A stretch of 64,000 nt of DNA from a virus, in the IMG/VR virus record IMGVR_UViG_3300045988_023906; one strand, written 5' to 3'. Below the pieces are notes generated by a model that worked only from the letters and a program-made list of their open reading frames with translations, searched no databases and was not told the DNA's origin. Positions within the stretch are counted from its first letter, which is position 1, and every line of letters starts with the position of its first letter. Shown here piece after piece: positions 44,527 to 50,461 of the stretch. The translations under genes and the position numbers were made by a program.

Positions 44527-46623
44527 ATGGCAACAGCAATTATAGGTACATTAAAGCATCTTCCTAAGGCATCAATACTGCCTACTTTACCAGAGACAGG
44601 TAGACCTAACAGGATATATTTTATCCCCAATGAAGACCCTACAGAAGATAATAGGTATAATGAATATCTATGGGTAAAGGATGAGACTTATCCTGATGGC
44701 CATTGGGAGCTTGTTGGTCCTGCCACAATAGACCTGACTGATTATGCCACTAAGGAAGAGGTAAGTGATTTGGAAGACTCCATAGGTGAGCAAATAAAGA
44801 AGTATTTGCCCTTATCAGGAGGTACAATGGATAAGGGCAGCAACATATCCTTCCCATCAGATAGTGGGAGTACTGTGTATAATGGTTCTGGAATATCAGT
44901 GGGTGGCAAAGCCAGTACTGACATCCTACATGCAGCAGGAGGCACTACTAAAATCAAGACCTTGAATGGAGAATCTATGTTAGGAGAAGGTAATATTGTA
45001 ATAGACCCTTCAAGTGTTCCAGTATCTTTAAGCTGGTATAATAGGACTAGCAGTCAGCAGGATGCCACAATAAACCTGACAATTGGAGATACCACAGTAA
45101 ACCTATTCCCTAATATATTCAAATTATTTAAGGCTGGTAAAGTTTCCACTTCCGAGTCCCTTAGTATAGAACTTACTGCTAATCCTGGGGTAAGTGGGAC
45201 ACCACAAGTTCCTACCTCATTATGCCAGTGGAGCATACCTTTGGCTGACAGTAATACCGCAGGTATTATATCAAGTGAGGATAAGGCTAAGTTAGATAAC
45301 CTATCTGACCCAAAGAATTTGCTAGCTTATGGTGTGGAATGGGATTCTACCAACAGTAGCCCTGTACTTACTAGAATAGGTAACATGAGCCTGCATAAGT
45401 CTCTCCCAATACAATCAGCATTAAGAGGATGTGTATGCCAAGGTAAAAGGATAATGTATTATTTGGACCCAAATGACTGGTCTAAGAAAGCAGATGGTAC
45501 AGATTCCAGATTGGATGGATATGATGGTACTGTACAGGTAGAAGTACCTGAATTTTATTTGTGGTCTGAAACGGAAGGAACCAAATCCAGAGTATATGTG
45601 TCTACCCAAAAAGTAGTTTCTTATGCTATAAGGATTCCTCATATGTTGGTAGATGCTTATAGGAGTACTGTACTTAATGAAGTGCCTGAGGATATGGGCT
45701 ATTTATCTACACTTCAAGTAAATAGTGCTATTTCAGTTGTAAATACCTCTTCTTATTGTAGAGGAGGAAATAATAGCTCTAGCAGTGATACCTACTTGGA
45801 ATCGGATAAATTCAGGACTAGTTTAGGAAAACCTAGAACAAACACTAGTAGGGCAAACTTCAGAACTTATGCCAAAAATGCTGGCAAGATGTTGCTTACT
45901 TATGAGTACTACAAATCAATATTCTATTGGTTGTATGTTATAGAATATGCAAACTTCAATAGTCAGGCAAACTATGTTGAAGATTTGACTGAAGATGGAT
46001 ATAGACAGGGAGGGCTTGGCAATGGAGTTACTACTTGGAGTGATGCTGTTTGGAATACTTATAATGGCAGATGCCCAATAACTCCATGTGGGTATTGTAA
46101 TGAGTTTGGTAACTTTACTGGAATTAAGGACTTGGTAATTCCTGCTTCAGATGGTATCAGTACCGTAACTTTCAAAGTACCAAGGTGGAGAGGATTTGAT
46201 AATGTGTTTGGAGATATTTGGACTAATCTGGATGGTATCCTAATAGATACTTCTGTCAGTGCCAGTAAGTCCACACCAAACTATGTGTATATTATAAATG
46301 ACCCTGATAAGTTCACTGATACTTTGTCAGATGCACCTACCAATGCGGATAGAGTAGTAGTATCAGGACATACAGGAGGGTATATTACAAAGTGGGCATT
46401 AGGGGAGTATGCAGATATAATACCTGTTAGTGTTGGTGGTTCTGCAACTACTTATATGTGTGACTGTTACTGGGTAGATTCTGATAATACTCAGAATACA
46501 CTACTGGTTGGTGGCCGGGCTCATTATGGTTCTAATGCTGGCTTGGCTTACTTCTTTTCTGCTCATGGTTCGGGTTATGTTTCTGCCCATGTCGGCTTTA
46601 GGTGCTTAACACTGATAAGCTGA
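44527..46623 (+). CDS. tail fibre / receptor-binding protein; DGR target gene (variable repeat at its C-terminus)
   Basis: 698 aa. The C-terminus GGRAHYGSNAGLAYFFSAHGSGYVSAHVGFRC is the coding copy of the 106-bp repeat. Confidence 0.75.
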   Translation: MATAIIGTLKHLPKASILPTLPETGRPNRIYFIPNEDPTEDNRYNEYLWVKDETYPDGHWELVGPATIDLTDYATKEEVSDLEDSIGEQIKKYLPLSGGTMDKGSNISFPSDSGSTVYNGSGISVGGKASTDILHAAGGTTKIKTLNGESMLGEGNIVIDPSSVPVSLSWYNRTSSQQDATINLTIGDTTVNLFPNIFKLFKAGKVSTSESLSIELTANPGVSGTPQVPTSLCQWSIPLADSNTAGIISSEDKAKLDNLSDPKNLLAYGVEWDSTNSSPVLTRIGNMSLHKSLPIQSALRGCVCQGKRIMYYLDPNDWSKKADGTDSRLDGYDGTVQVEVPEFYLWSETEGTKSRVYVSTQKVVSYAIRIPHMLVDAYRSTVLNEVPEDMGYLSTLQVNSAISVVNTSSYCRGGNNSSSSDTYLESDKFRTSLGKPRTNTSRANFRTYAKNAGKMLLTYEYYKSIFYWLYVIEYANFNSQANYVEDLTEDGYRQGGLGNGVTTWSDAVWNTYNGRCPITPCGYCNEFGNFTGIKDLVIPASDGISTVTFKVPRWRGFDNVFGDIWTNLDGILIDTSVSASKSTPNYVYIINDPDKFTDTLSDAPTNADRVVVSGHTGGYITKWALGEYADIIPVSVGGSATTYMCDCYWVDSDNTQNTLLVGGRAHYGSNAGLAYFFSAHGSGYVSAHVGFRCLTLIS
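46499..46604 (+). repeat. DGR variable repeat (VR)
   Basis: Base-by-base alignment to 46697-46802 (offset 198) gives 80 identities and 26 mismatches. Every mismatch is opposite an A in the other copy. Confidence 0.85.
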
Positions 46624-46696
46624 TTTGATAAAGAAAAGAAAATCATAGTTTTACTATGTAGGACATATATTATACGACTTGGTTAGTTCTAATTGT

Positions 46697-46802
46697 AAAA
46701 ACTAGTTAGTAGCAAGGCTAATAATGGTTCTAATGCTAGCTTGGCTAACTTCAATTCTACTAATAGTTCAGGTAATGTTAATGCCAATATCAGCTTAAGG
46801 TA
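46697..46802 (+). repeat. DGR template repeat (TR)
   Basis: This is the non-coding copy. In the VR frame it is AAT/AAC-rich (NNGSNASLANFNSTNSSGNVNANISLRY). Homology ends at non-A mismatches on both sides. Confidence 0.85.
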
Positions 46803-46848
46803 TTTTTTTTTTGTTTTCTCTTTAAATTTTATATGTGATATATGTTCC

Positions 46849-46862
46849 TTGCCTCTAGGCAA
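46849..46862 (+). other. small hairpin TTGCC-TCTA-GGCAA in the TR-to-RT spacer
   Basis: Read directly. In functional DGRs this spacer region is part of the priming RNA. Confidence 0.3.
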
Positions 46863-46928
46863 AAGATAAATAGTTTAAAAAGTACTAGTAAGAGTTGCTG
46901 AAAGTGCTTAATATGAAACACCTAAATT

Positions 46929-47345
46929 ATGGTTAAAAGAAAAGGAAATTTGATTTTATCCCTATGCAGGATGGATAATATTCTCTTGGCAGATACAAAT
47001 GCTAGGAAAGCTAAAAGGAGGAGTAGAAGATTTATAGAAAAACATGATAAGAATATTATAGAAGAGGATAGAAACTACCCTAGAAGGCATGAAGATGATG
47101 GTTTCATGGATGTGTTTGATTCTAGAAGCAATAGGTTTGGTGACAGGTTCAGAGACTCTGGCATGAGAGGAAATGACATGGACAGAATAATAAAGTACAT
47201 GAGACATTCCATGAATGATGGAGAACACTTTACTGAATCTGAAGCTATGGATTTGGTATCTAATATGAGGGTGGCAGAAAGTATAGTGGAGAAAAGTTTG
47301 ATATACATAAGGCAAAGGAAATTTGTGAAAGGTATAGAGGAGTGA
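46929..47345 (+). CDS. 138-aa ORF whose first ~45 aa resemble a DGR reverse-transcriptase N-terminus; RT catalytic motifs are absent (truncated or chimeric RT remnant)
   Basis: KRKGNLILSLCRMDNILLADTNARKAKRRSRRFIEKHDKNIIE resembles RT N-termini. The remainder (RNYPRRHEDDGFMDVFDSRSNRFGDRF...) has no YxDD or finger/palm motifs. Confidence 0.45.
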   Translation: MVKRKGNLILSLCRMDNILLADTNARKAKRRSRRFIEKHDKNIIEEDRNYPRRHEDDGFMDVFDSRSNRFGDRFRDSGMRGNDMDRIIKYMRHSMNDGEHFTESEAMDLVSNMRVAESIVEKSLIYIRQRKFVKGIEE

Positions 47346-47539
47346 TTCCTGTGTCTGCAACTCCTACTGATGTGTATGTGGCAATCAACTCACAGTATCA
47401 TGATTATGTTGAGCTGTTTAAGAGTTGGTTTGGTGATAATGTAGACCAAAAGATAATAGAATCTGCTATTATATTCTGGTTCAAAGATGTGGATTGCAAA
47501 GCCGAAAACAAGGTAGTAGAATATCTTGGAGAATACTAA
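47342..47539 (+). CDS. hypothetical small protein
   Basis: 65-aa ORF followed by a terminator. Confidence 0.4.
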   Translation: MIPVSATPTDVYVAINSQYHDYVELFKSWFGDNVDQKIIESAIIFWFKDVDCKAENKVVEYLGEY

Positions 47540-47545
47540 TAAGAT

Positions 47546-48859: not shown

Positions 48860-48946
48860 GCTATGTTTAAGTCTGGTATTTACTTATGGAGAAATAAAAT
48901 TACTAATGGTTTTATAAAAATAATTTATAATTTTTAATATTTTTTG

Positions 48947-50461
48947 ATGATGGCTGGAAAATTAGGTAAGTTTCAAATGGTAGGCTTCCAACACTGGAAG
49001 GGCCTTACTAAGGAAAACCACCTTGGTTCTATCTTTCAGTTAGCTCCACAGAAGGCTACAAACCTAATGGTACAACTGCTGGCCTTCTATAGAGGAAAGA
49101 CACTTGACACATTCCTAAATCAATTCCCAACAAGAGAGTTTGAGGATGATAATGAATACTACTGGGATGTTATTGGTTCTTCAAGGAGAAACATTCCTCT
49201 TGTAGAGGCAAGAGATGAAAATGGTACTGTTGTTACAGATGCCAGTGGTATGATTGGAGTAGGCACTGCTCCCTTCTATTTGGTATTCCCTGAGGATTGG
49301 TTTGCTGATGGTGAATACATTGTAGGTAATCTGAATGAAATCTATCAGTTCAGAATACTTGGAGACCCAAGAATGGAGGGTACTAATGCAGTGTATAAGG
49401 TAGAGCTTGCTGGTGGTAACACAGCAGGTGTTCCTGCTGAAAGATTGCTTGCAGGTGAGAGATTCTCAGTTGAAGCTGCATTTGTTGAGAAGGAACTTTC
49501 AAGAAAGGTTGGTGATGTAAGATTTACAAGCCCTGTTTCTATGAGAAATGAGTGGTCTGTAGTAAGAATCCAACACAAGGTTCCAGGTTCTATGTTGAAC
49601 AAGAAGCTGGCTGTAGGTATTCCTATTGTTAAGGAAACTGAGGGTAGATATACTAAGTCAGTTGCTACAATGTGGATGCACAATGTAGATTGGGAAGTAG
49701 AACAGCAATTCTCTGAGTACAAGAACAATGCACTTGCATTTGGTAGAAGCAACAGAAATGCCAATGGTGAGTACATGAACTTTGGTAAGTCTGGTAATGT
49801 TATTAAGACAGGTGCTGCTCTGTTTGAGCAGATGGAAGTTGCTAATACTGTGTATTACAACACATTCAGCTTGAAGCTTCTTGAAGATGCTCTATATGAG
49901 CTTTCTGCTTCTAAGTTAGACTTTGGAGACAGATACTTCTTGATTAAGACTGGTGAGAGAGGTGCTATCCAATTCCACAAGGAAGTACTAAAGACAGTAT
50001 CAGGTTGGACACAATTTGTTCTTGACAACAGCTCTATTGGTGTTATTCAAAAGACTCAATCTAAGTTGCACCAAAACTCATTGAGTGCTGGTTTCCAATT
50101 TGTTGAGTATAAGGCTCCTAATGGTGTTAGAGTTAAGATTGATGTAGACCCATTCTATGATGACCCAGTAAGAAACAAGATACTTCATCCAAATGGAGGT
50201 GTTGCATTCTCTTACAGATATGATATTATGTACATTGGTACTATGGACCAACCTAATATCTTTAAGTGTAAGATTAAGGGTGACAATGAGTACAGAGGTT
50301 ATCAATGGGGTCTAAGAAACCCATTCACAGGTCAAAAGGGTAATCCTTACATGTCATTTGATGAGGATTCTGCTGTAATTCACAGAATGGCTACTCTTGG
50401 TATCTGTGTTCTTGACCCAACAAGAACTATGTCACTAATCCCTGCAATTCTACAGGGCTAA
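48947..50461 (+). CDS. putative major capsid protein
   Basis: About 504 aa counted from the first ATG (the track starts at a TTG at 48944). It follows the scaffold-like gene and is followed by a strong terminator. Size and position match crAss-like MCPs, but I have no motif proof. Confidence 0.6.
   Translation: MMAGKLGKFQMVGFQHWKGLTKENHLGSIFQLAPQKATNLMVQLLAFYRGKTLDTFLNQFPTREFEDDNEYYWDVIGSSRRNIPLVEARDENGTVVTDASGMIGVGTAPFYLVFPEDWFADGEYIVGNLNEIYQFRILGDPRMEGTNAVYKVELAGGNTAGVPAERLLAGERFSVEAAFVEKELSRKVGDVRFTSPVSMRNEWSVVRIQHKVPGSMLNKKLAVGIPIVKETEGRYTKSVATMWMHNVDWEVEQQFSEYKNNALAFGRSNRNANGEYMNFGKSGNVIKTGAALFEQMEVANTVYYNTFSLKLLEDALYELSASKLDFGDRYFLIKTGERGAIQFHKEVLKTVSGWTQFVLDNSSIGVIQKTQSKLHQNSLSAGFQFVEYKAPNGVRVKIDVDPFYDDPVRNKILHPNGGVAFSYRYDIMYIGTMDQPNIFKCKIKGDNEYRGYQWGLRNPFTGQKGNPYMSFDEDSAVIHRMATLGICVLDPTRTMSLIPAILQG

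What the first reader, a model, noticed from the sequence alone, without database searches (positions are those of the whole stretch)
46499..46802. DGR signature: 106-bp template/variable repeat pair with all 26 mismatches at template adenines
The 3' end of the 698-aa receptor-binding ORF (46499-46604, VR) is repeated 198 bp downstream in non-coding DNA (46697-46802, TR). I aligned the two copies base by base and found 80 identities and 26 differences.

At every one of the 26 differences the non-coding copy has A, and the coding copy has G, C or T. Examples are 46738 A vs 46540 G, 46753-54 AA vs 46555-56 TT, 46780-81 AA vs 46582-83 TC, and 46714-15 AA vs 46516-17 CG. Homology stops on both sides at non-A mismatches.

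In the VR frame the TR is packed with AAT/AAC codons (NNGSNASLANFNSTNSSGNVNANISLRY). The VR reads HYGSNAGLAYFFSAHGSGYVSAHVGFRC. Adenine-specific TR-to-VR divergence at the C-terminus of a ligand-binding protein is the defining hallmark of mutagenic retrohoming by a diversity-generating retroelement. The G..NAG...GFR ending fits the C-type-lectin/FGE-like fold typical of DGR targets. This would give a crAss-like phage a hypervariable host-recognition tip.
Basis: partly seen in the sequence, partly recalled or inferred. Interest (0 to 1): 0.92.

Follow-up and report, generated by a model that had tools for sequence, protein, structure and literature searches.

The report
Retroelement-diversified tail tip, reverse transcriptase deleted
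The repeat pair is a real footprint of a diversity-generating retroelement on a crAss-like phage tail protein, but this genome has lost the reverse transcriptase gene, so it is a recently frozen relic of a kind already described in crAss-like phages.

Summary
Positions 46499-46604 (the end of the 698-aa tail gene, VR) and 46697-46802 (non-coding, TR) align without gaps. They share 80 of 106 bases, and all 26 mismatches have A in the TR (P about 2e-16).

It is a true DGR footprint:
- The C-terminal domain models as a C-type-lectin/FGE fold, with the DGR variable protein TaqVP as top PDB hit.
- Relatives carry a DGR-type reverse transcriptase (RT) directly after the same TR.
- Among genomes about 99% identical elsewhere, the VR differs almost only at TR-adenine positions.

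This genome, however, has no RT:
- Only RT codons 1-47 remain (46929-47069). They are joined through a 10-nt microhomology to a truncated, frameshifted DUF7841 gene.
- This is a 4.7-kb deletion relative to RT-intact relatives.
- No RT lies in the window or in 10 kb beyond either end.
- All 12 contig records that carry the deletion's diagnostic fusion ORF appear to carry the identical tail protein, so the VR looks frozen.

It is therefore an RT-less DGR relic and cannot diversify itself, unless an RT acts in trans. Complete and incomplete DGR cassettes in crAss-like phages are already published. The only new point is the host lineage (Kahnovirus, Steigviridae).

The parts
44527..46623 (+). Target gene: 698-aa tail protein (putative receptor-binding fibre)
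   Evidence: ORF. phrog_5302 'tail protein', E 7.8e-85 over residues 263-694. BFVD structural neighbours are crAss tail or tail-collar fibre proteins and a virus protein labelled Treponema denticola variable protein 1.
45283..46620 (+). C-terminal domain (residues 253-698) with a C-type-lectin/FGE-like fold; the VR encodes residues 658-693
   Evidence: AlphaFold2 model has pLDDT 93.8 and pTM 0.93. Foldseek PDB hits: TaqVP 5vf4 E 3.2e-5, formylglycine-generating enzymes E 2.5e-4 to 1e-3, Mtd 1yu3 E 1.4e-3. TM-scores are low, 0.35-0.45.
46499..46604 (+). Variable repeat (VR)
   Evidence: Across 14 close genomes, 39/106 VR columns vary against 42/599 upstream; 27/37 TR-A columns vary against 12/69 non-A columns.
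46643..46657 (+). Small inverted repeat CATAG-TTTTA-CTATG between VR and TR; function unknown. The deletion shared by cr85_1-type genomes starts inside it (46655)
   Evidence: Sequence. Conserved in L014. Breakpoints. Weak evidence only.
46697..46802 (+). Template repeat (TR), non-coding, followed by a T-run (46803-46812)
   Evidence: It differs from the consensus TR of RT-intact relatives at 2 positions (46743 A to G, 46789 G to A).
46845..46921 (+). RT-associated structured-RNA motif between TR and RT start (RT-17-like), likely part of the DGR RNA
   Evidence: Rfam RF03020, 37.5 bits (gathering score 40.4), E 8.9e-6. The hairpin CCTTGCC-N4-GGCAAAA is invariant in 13 relatives, and the second stem has 2 compensatory pairs. 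Below the curated threshold, so suggestive only.
46929..47069 (+). Remnant of the DGR reverse transcriptase gene: codons 1-47 only
   Evidence: tblastn with the L014 RT matches aa 1-47. tblastn with the intact 338-aa RT P0121 matches aa 1-59 at 83% identity; that match runs past the deletion junction. No YxDD or GxxxSQ motif occurs in an RT context anywhere in the window.
47063..47072 (+). Deletion junction: 10-nt microhomology AGAGGATAGA shared by the RT gene and the DUF7841 gene
   Evidence: Three-way comparison. The deletion is 4.69-4.71 kb relative to L064/L066.
47063..47539 (+). DUF7841 pseudogene: lacks about 40-46 N-terminal codons and carries a 10-bp deletion after 47265 that shifts the frame (ORFs 46929-47345 and 47342-47539)
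   Evidence: Pfam PF25223 hits on both ORFs. tblastn hits in two frames. Alignment to cr85_1.

Best explanation
This is the relic of a diversity-generating retroelement (DGR) of the TG-VR-TR-RT type, without an avd gene.

In the ancestor, the TR and the downstream structured spacer were transcribed. The adjacent RT copied the TR into cDNA, misincorporating opposite adenines. The cDNA then replaced the VR at the 3' end of the tail-fibre gene and rewrote about 36 codons in the ligand-binding face of a C-type-lectin/FGE-fold domain.

In this genome, a 4.7-kb deletion between two 10-nt microhomologies removed RT codons 48-338, eight downstream accessory ORFs and the start of a DUF7841 gene. The VR, the TR and the spacer RNA element remain, but there is no enzyme. 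The VR is therefore frozen in its last written state. It can change again only by ordinary mutation, by recombination, or if an RT-intact relative co-infects.

Shown: the VR/TR pattern, the fold, the RT remnant and deletion junction, intact cassettes in relatives, and A-site hypervariability between genomes.

Inferred: the retrohoming mechanism itself (by homology to studied DGRs), present inactivity, and recency of the loss.
For: VR/TR pattern:
- All 26 of 26 mismatches lie at TR adenines, P 2e-16.

RT remnant and deletion:
- Only RT codons 1-47 remain, and no RT motif occurs elsewhere in the window.
- The junction has a 10-nt microhomology.
- The deletion is 4.7 kb relative to L064/L066.
- The same arrangement is identical (0-1 SNP over 8.1 kb) in three separate assemblies from ENA and JGI, so it is not a misassembly.

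Intact relatives:
- An intact 338-aa RT with IGNYLSQ and YADD motifs, 98% identical to the frameshift-corrected RT of close relative L015, sits on 17 contigs at the same position.
- Each of the 6 shown has a unique VR, and 5 of the 6 have the same TR. Their VR/TR mismatches are 25-34, almost all at A.
- In validly aligned pairs, the VR diverges at 7-16 of 106 positions against about 0.7% in the flanks.
- Distant relatives with intact RT show 17/17 to 23/23 A-only mismatches.

This genome compared with others:
- Window against cr85_1: 15 differences in the 106-nt VR, 14 at TR-A, against 18 in 1972 nt upstream.
- No RT in 10 kb beyond either window end.
- The complete cr85_1 genome holds only one RT fragment.
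- The diagnostic fusion ORF and the exact tail protein occur on the same 12 contig blocks.

Fold: TaqVP, FGE and Mtd hits.
Against: - About 17 kb of the roughly 98.4-kb genome was not seen, so a second RT cannot be formally excluded.
- The 12 contigs with the identical VR are almost clonal (0-1 SNP over 8 kb) and may come from one cohort or person, so the evidence for stasis is modest.
- The TR and the spacer RNA element are still essentially intact (2 private TR substitutions), which would also fit a template still used in trans.
- No read-level data were available.
- Foldseek TM-scores to CLec/FGE proteins are low (0.35-0.45), although the hit list consists of that fold.
- No clear GC-rich IMH/IMH* element could be identified.
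Confidence: 0.85

Rival explanations
1. A fully functional DGR. The cognate RT would be encoded elsewhere in the same genome and would still diversify the tail tip.
For: The VR/TR signature is perfect, with no non-A mismatches. The TR and the spacer RNA motif are intact. About 17 kb of the genome was not inspected.
Against: - The cognate RT's own first 47 codons sit exactly where the RT belongs and are cut off by a deletion.
- No RT occurs in 64 kb plus about 17 kb of flank.
- The complete genome of relative cr85_1 has a single RT fragment.
- The unseen part begins with a giant virion-protein gene.
- The VR is identical on all contigs of the deletion lineage.
Confidence: 0.04
2. An orphan TR-VR pair serviced in trans. 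An RT-intact relative of the same phage species co-infects the same cell. Either its RT acts on this genome's TR RNA, or its own TR-cDNA homes into this genome's VR. The relic would then still diversify occasionally.
For: - RT-intact relatives about 98.5% identical across tail gene, TR and spacer are common in gut metagenomes.
- The TR, the spacer and the VR 3' flank are conserved between the two forms.
- Trans-supply of TR and RT works in the Bordetella phage system (my recollection of the literature, not checked here).
Against: - The deletion lineage shows one VR on 12 contig blocks.
- The two private TR substitutions look like unconstrained drift.
- Nothing was tested directly.
Confidence: 0.08
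3. The missing RT is an assembly artefact, and the real phage has the complete cassette.
For: Hypervariable and repeated regions can break assemblies. Related IMG/VR contigs show many different gaps in this region.
Against: - Three assemblies from different sources and pipelines (ENA MEGAHIT k119, two JGI) are identical through the junction.
- A 10-nt microhomology is far below assembler k-mer sizes.
- Contig length (98.4 kb against 100.7-102.5 kb for relatives with the full-length region) fits a real 4.7-kb loss.
Confidence: 0.02
4. A chance or ordinary duplication unrelated to a retroelement.
For: None beyond the A+T-rich composition of the phage (36% G+C).
Against: P 2e-16 for A-only mismatches. 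An RT remnant lies adjacent. The same architecture with intact RT occurs in dozens of relatives.
Confidence: 0.01

Closest known systems
DGR of crAssphage LMMB and the incomplete DGR cassettes of genus I alpha-crAss phages (Morozova et al. 2020, PMC7290462)
   Same: - Architecture is target gene-VR-TR-RT with no avd.
- The target is a tail fibre protein with its VR at the C-terminus.
- The RT is homologous (56% identity to the L014 RT).
- That paper reports 16% complete and 73% incomplete cassettes, with truncated RT and with or without a TR. This is the same decay seen here.
   Different: - A different family: the window is about 90% identical to Kahnovirus oralis cr85_1, Steigviridae. LMMB is Intestiviridae.
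- The genomic position differs: here the cassette lies between the lysis genes and the head module.
- The papers read list Alpha, Delta, Epsilon and Zeta groups as DGR carriers, not Beta/Steigviridae.
Fragmented or deleted RT in Epsilonunovirus crAss-like phages (PMC11054128)
   Same: - The target RBP has a C-type-lectin fold, with TaqVP as the closest structure.
- The RT is fragmented or deleted in many genomes while the VR persists.
   Different: Those RTs carry GxxxSP. The RT of this lineage has the canonical GxxxSQ (IGNYLSQ).
Bordetella phage BPP-1 DGR (Mtd/Brt/Avd)
   Same: - Adenine-specific TR-to-VR transfer into the C-terminal CLec-fold tip of a tail fibre.
- A structured RNA lies between TR and RT (RT-10 in BPP-1, PMC5737381; RT-17-like here).
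- Mtd is among the fold hits, and Bordetella phage RTs are among the tblastn hits.
   Different: - No avd gene was found.
- No recognisable GC-rich IMH.
- The RT is absent in this genome.
TR-VR pairs in gut phage genomes without an RT (6.5% of 53,630 RT-less high-quality genomes; Nayfach et al. 2021, PMC8241571)
   Same: An RT-less genome that still carries a DGRscan-type TR-VR pair.
   Different: Here the cause is resolved to the base: a microhomology-mediated deletion that leaves the RT's first 47 codons.

Membership tests
Diversity-generating retroelement (functional cassette) | TR/VR repeat pair whose differences are confined to TR adenines | tested here: met
   All 26 of 26 mismatches at TR A; 0 of 69 non-A positions differ; P 2e-16.
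Diversity-generating retroelement (functional cassette) | DGR-clade reverse transcriptase (RVT_1 with [LIV]GxxxSQ and YxDD) encoded near the TR | tested here: not met
   Only codons 1-47 remain. No RT motifs in the window or in 10 kb on either side. Met in relatives (P0121, L014: RVT_1 E 6e-19, IGNYLSQ, YADD).
Diversity-generating retroelement (functional cassette) | VR at the 3' end of a gene for a variable protein with a C-type-lectin (or Ig) fold | tested here: met
   The VR covers residues 658-693 of 698. The model has pLDDT 93.8. Top PDB hits are TaqVP, FGEs and Mtd. No Pfam or NCBIfam hit by sequence.
Diversity-generating retroelement (functional cassette) | Ongoing hypervariability of the VR in the population | tested here: inconclusive
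   Between genomes of the species the VR is hypervariable at A sites. Within the deletion lineage the VR is identical on all 12 contig blocks. Independence of those samples is unknown and no reads were available.
Diversity-generating retroelement (functional cassette) | IMH at the VR 3' end and IMH* at the TR 3' end | tested here: inconclusive
   Homology runs to 46604/46802 and then stops at a T-run. No GC-rich shared element is evident. Function is not testable in silico.
Diversity-generating retroelement (functional cassette) | Accessory gene (avd or HRDC); not universal | tested here: not met
   No Avd-like Pfam hit in the window ORFs or next to the intact RT of L019. This fits lineage-3 DGRs, which lack avd (PMC7290462).
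Incomplete DGR cassette / RT-less TR-VR relic in crAss-like phages | VR and/or TR retained with a truncated or absent RT at the position where relatives carry a complete cassette | tested here: met
   The phenomenon is described in PMC7290462 and PMC11054128.
Crassvirales, Steigviridae, genus Kahnovirus | crAss-type capsid and virion genes, and nucleotide similarity to Kahnovirus oralis cr85_1 | tested here: met
   Crass_capsid E 4.6e-228. Ring, muzzle and cargo Pfam families. 90% identity over 76% of 24 kb to cr85_1. Taxonomy line. Species rank was not assessed.

The most novel reading that the evidence does not exclude
Loss of the RT is not passive decay but a recurrent, selected 'diversify, then lock' step. 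At least 11 different RT-inactivating lesions occur among 16 near-identical genomes, while RT-intact forms circulate widely. Lineages that found a good receptor-binding variant may repeatedly discard the mutator. Because they keep the TR and its RNA element, they could be re-diversified in trans during co-infection with an RT-intact sibling. One relative (L015) has had every adenine in two-thirds of its TR rewritten. This hints that the element can also destroy its own template.
Probability: 0.15. Interest if true: 0.6.

Novelty: new member of a known kind. Interest (0 to 1): 0.3.

Why it matters
It identifies which tail protein, and which ~36 residues of it (658-693), this abundant human-gut crAss-like lineage varies. 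These are presumably used to recognise its Bacteroides host.

It also shows that annotation from a TR/VR signature alone overstates function. The enzyme must be checked too.

The species offers a natural series for studying how and why phages lose DGRs. It includes RT-intact genomes, many independently RT-deleted genomes, and one genome with a self-mutated TR, all about 99% identical elsewhere.

As a discovery it is incremental. DGRs and their remnants in crAss-like phages are established, and this adds a Steigviridae example.

Tried and rejected
- Longer ancestral TR. Variable columns at 46465-46495 suggested one, but a gapped extension of the TR/VR homology scores no better than shuffles (obs 15.0, shuffle mean 15.6). 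L014 and the consensus TR have the same boundaries. Rejected.
- Sequence-family searches of the tail protein. Pfam gave only a sub-threshold PilS hit, NCBIfam gave nothing, and a profile against PDB sequences gave nothing. Only the structure comparison was informative.
- First structure model (277 residues, 39 sequences). It was poor (pLDDT 68.8) and its PDB hits were not significant. It was redone with residues 253-698 and 76 sequences.
- Rfam at gathering threshold on 8 related loci gave nothing. The RT-17 hit in the window is below threshold. RNAalifold covariation support is thin, with 2 compensatory pairs.
- The local aligner with gaps over-extended the TR/VR pairs in several loci. Only ungapped cores were used.
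- Three exact-protein look-ups failed because I gave minus-strand coordinates that included the stop codon rather than the start. Corrected.
- Some pairwise counts are inflated by 1-nt register shifts (L063, L065) and were ignored.
- Promoter and terminator scans were not run, because the tool does not model Bacteroidota-type promoters.
- Avd was searched for by Pfam only.
Full report
**1. Observation**

At a constant offset of 198 nt, window 46499-46604 and 46697-46802 align without gaps. There are 80 identities and 26 mismatches, and the downstream copy has A at every mismatch. The repeat finder reports the same pair independently.

None of the 69 non-adenine template positions differs. Of the 37 template adenines, 26 differ. 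The chance that 26 mismatches fall only on those 37 positions is 2.2e-16. The next-best ungapped match of the upstream copy anywhere in the window is 45/106, and the template has no second target on either strand.

The upstream copy lies in the last 125 nt of ORF 44527-46623 (698 aa). Template adenines lie mainly at codon positions 1 and 2. Of the differing codons, 20 are non-synonymous and 2 synonymous.

**2. Setting**

The window is a crAss-like phage. The ORF at 48944-50461 is a Crassvirus major capsid protein (E 4.6e-228), and ring, muzzle and cargo protein families follow.

The closest GenBank genome is cr85_1 (Kahnovirus oralis, Steigviridae). It is about 90% identical over 76% of a 24-kb test segment and 98.5% identical across the tail gene.

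The 698-aa protein matches a PHROG 'tail protein' family. A first model of its last 277 residues was poor. A model of residues 253-698 built from 76 homologues has pLDDT 93.8. Its best PDB matches are the DGR variable protein TaqVP (E 3.2e-5), then formylglycine-generating enzymes, then the Bordetella phage Mtd. TM-scores are low (0.35-0.45), but the list consists of the C-type-lectin/FGE fold.

**3. The missing enzyme**

A DGR needs a reverse transcriptase next to the template. None is present. No RT-type YxDD or GxxxSQ context exists in six frames of the window.

The ORF that starts 126 nt after the template (46929-47345) begins MVKRKGNL...IIEED. tblastn with an intact relative's RT matches only residues 1-47. 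From codon 48 on, the ORF continues in the sequence of a DUF7841 gene.

The junction is a 10-nt microhomology (AGAGGATAGA, 47063-47072) present in both parental genes. The DUF7841 gene also carries a 10-bp deletion after 47265 that shifts its frame.

Relative to full-length relatives (L064, L066), 4.69-4.71 kb are missing. The lost sequence comprises RT codons 48-338, eight accessory ORFs (including an HTH protein and a GIY-YIG protein) and the first codons of DUF7841.

The arrangement is real. An ENA assembly and two JGI assemblies are identical to the window over 8.1 kb through the junction, with 0-1 SNP.

No RT lies in the 10 kb beyond either end of the window. The complete cr85_1 genome holds a single RT fragment. 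About 17 kb of this roughly 98.4-kb genome remain unseen.

**4. Comparative evidence that the retroelement worked until recently**

- *Same architecture in distant relatives.* More distant relatives of the tail protein (about 50% identity) have a full-length RT right after the gene. Their 98-108-nt repeat pairs have mismatches exclusively at template adenines: 23/23, 23/23, 17/17, 20/20 and 18/18.
- *Intact RT in close relatives.* The larger metagenome collection holds an intact 338-aa RT (P0121). It carries IGNYLSQ and YADD, and it is 98% identical to the frameshift-corrected RT of close relative L015. It heads a cluster of 201 sequences, and the exact sequence is found on 17 contigs of 32-102 kb with the same synteny.
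- *Unique variable repeats.* Five of the six loci shown share one template sequence, and every one has a different variable repeat. They show 25-34 mismatches, nearly all at adenines. In validly aligned pairs the flanks differ by about 0.7%, while 7-16 of 106 variable-repeat positions differ.
- *Window against cr85_1.* There are 18 differences in 1972 nt upstream and 15 in the 106-nt repeat, 14 of them at template-adenine positions.
- *Fourteen close genomes.* 27 of 37 adenine-paired columns vary, against 12 of 69 others and 42 of 599 upstream columns.

**5. State in this genome**

The window's template differs from the consensus template at two positions (46743 A to G, 46789 G to A). Otherwise the template and variable repeat agree at all non-adenine positions, so the RT loss is recent.

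The 138-aa fusion ORF, which is diagnostic for the deletion, occurs on the same 12 contig blocks as the exact 698-aa tail protein. The variable repeat therefore appears invariant in the deletion lineage. These contigs are nearly clonal and may not be independent, so this is supportive rather than decisive.

A sub-threshold match to Rfam RT-17, one of the RT-gene-associated RNA motifs, lies between template and RT start (46845-46921; 37.5 bits against a gathering score of 40.4; E 8.9e-6). A related motif, RT-10, sits at this position in phage BPP-1 (PMC5737381). The first hairpin of the window's motif is invariant in 13 relatives and the second stem has two compensatory pairs. The template RNA module is thus still present.

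**6. Mechanism**

The most likely history is as follows:
- An avd-less TG-VR-TR-RT element rewrote the tail-fibre tip by adenine-mutagenic retrohoming. This mechanism is inferred from homology to studied DGRs.
- A microhomology-mediated deletion then removed the RT. This is shown.
- The variable repeat has been frozen since. This is inferred, at about 0.85.

Rivals and their estimated probabilities:
- A hidden RT elsewhere in the genome (0.04).
- Servicing in trans by co-infecting RT-intact siblings (0.08).
- Misassembly (0.02).
- Chance (0.01).

**7. What is known**

DGRs in crAss-like phages were described in 2020 for crAssphage LMMB. It has the same TG-VR-TR-RT, avd-less architecture. That study found that only 16% of genus I genomes have complete cassettes, while 73% have truncated ones with or without a template (PMC7290462).

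Later papers report complete or fragmentary cassettes in Alpha, Delta, Epsilon and Zeta groups, and TaqVP-like folds for the targets (PMC11054128, PMC12386605). RT-less gut phage genomes with TR-VR pairs are also on record (PMC8241571).

The papers I read do not list Steigviridae, and a search for 'Kahnovirus' returned 10 papers, none DGR-related by title or abstract. The RT fragment of cr85_1 is unannotated in GenBank. This is therefore a new member of a known kind, not a new kind.

As a functional DGR it fails the RT criterion. It is best filed as an incomplete DGR cassette.

**8. Side observations**

Among 16 close relatives from IMG/VR and GenBank, none has an intact RT. At least 11 different lesions are seen, several of which also remove the template or part of the tail gene. 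The whole stretch between the tail gene and the head module is thus a deletion hot spot.

In one relative (L015) the RT has an 8-nt frameshift deletion. All 20 adenines of template positions 36-98 are replaced (13 to G), while positions 1-35 are untouched. It looks as if mutagenised cDNA had homed into the template itself.

**9. Verdict**

Novelty is low and interest about 0.3.

Noticed in passing
L015:10175-10271 (IMGVR_UViG_3300029780_000039): The template repeat of this close relative is itself rewritten. All 20 adenines in TR positions 36-98 are replaced (13 A to G, 4 A to T, 3 A to C), with 6 non-A changes and a 7-nt loss at the 3' end. Positions 1-35 are untouched. Its RT has an 8-nt frameshift deletion. 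This is possibly mutagenic homing into the TR. L006 has a smaller change (AAT to GGT) in its TR.
   Followed up: partly
L001-L018, region equivalent to window 46650-47540: The stretch between the tail gene and the head module is a deletion hot spot. At least 11 different RT-inactivating lesions occur among 16 genomes that are 95-99% identical in the tail gene. Several also remove the TR, part of the tail gene (L013, L018) or various amounts of the DUF7841 gene.
   Followed up: partly
L064:8033-11688, L065, L066: Full-length relatives carry eight ORFs between RT and DUF7841. They include a weak HTH_17 and a weak GIY-YIG (homing-endonuclease-like) protein directly after the RT. All are absent from the window. 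Whether the endonuclease contributes to the instability is unknown.
   Followed up: no
window 47265-47266 and 46929-47539: The DUF7841 gene is doubly disrupted. Its 5' end was lost in the 4.7-kb deletion, and a separate 10-bp deletion (TGTATCACAC in cr85_1) shifts the frame, giving ORFs of 138 and 65 aa.
   Followed up: yes
window 46465-46495: A cluster of variable columns lies just upstream of the VR: 46465-66, 46481-83, 46486 and 46495, changing residues C/R/H/S, S/Y and N/D. It falls outside the TR-homologous stretch, and the TR has no significant homology there. Possible causes are selection on neighbouring surface residues or older homing events.
   Followed up: partly
window 46845-46921: Sub-threshold match to Rfam RT-17 (and a weaker one to RT-14) between TR and the RT start. 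The hairpin CCTTGCC-N4-GGCAAAA is invariant across relatives from different crAss groups.
   Followed up: partly
window 46643-46657: A short inverted repeat CATAG-TTTTA-CTATG followed by TAGGAC lies between the tail gene stop and the TR. It is conserved in L014. The deletion shared by cr85_1, L003, L011 and L016 begins inside it.
   Followed up: no
L033:8000-11000 and similar loci (L035-L047): The tail gene and RT of these more distant relatives (contigs of 96-270 kb) break into short ORFs under genetic code 11, although tblastn aligns them end to end. This suggests stop-codon reassignment in those phages.
   Followed up: no
L069:10823-11470 (just left of window position 409): An ORF with weak LAGLIDADG homing-endonuclease hits sits in the replication module next to an NrdD-type reductase gene.
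   Followed up: no
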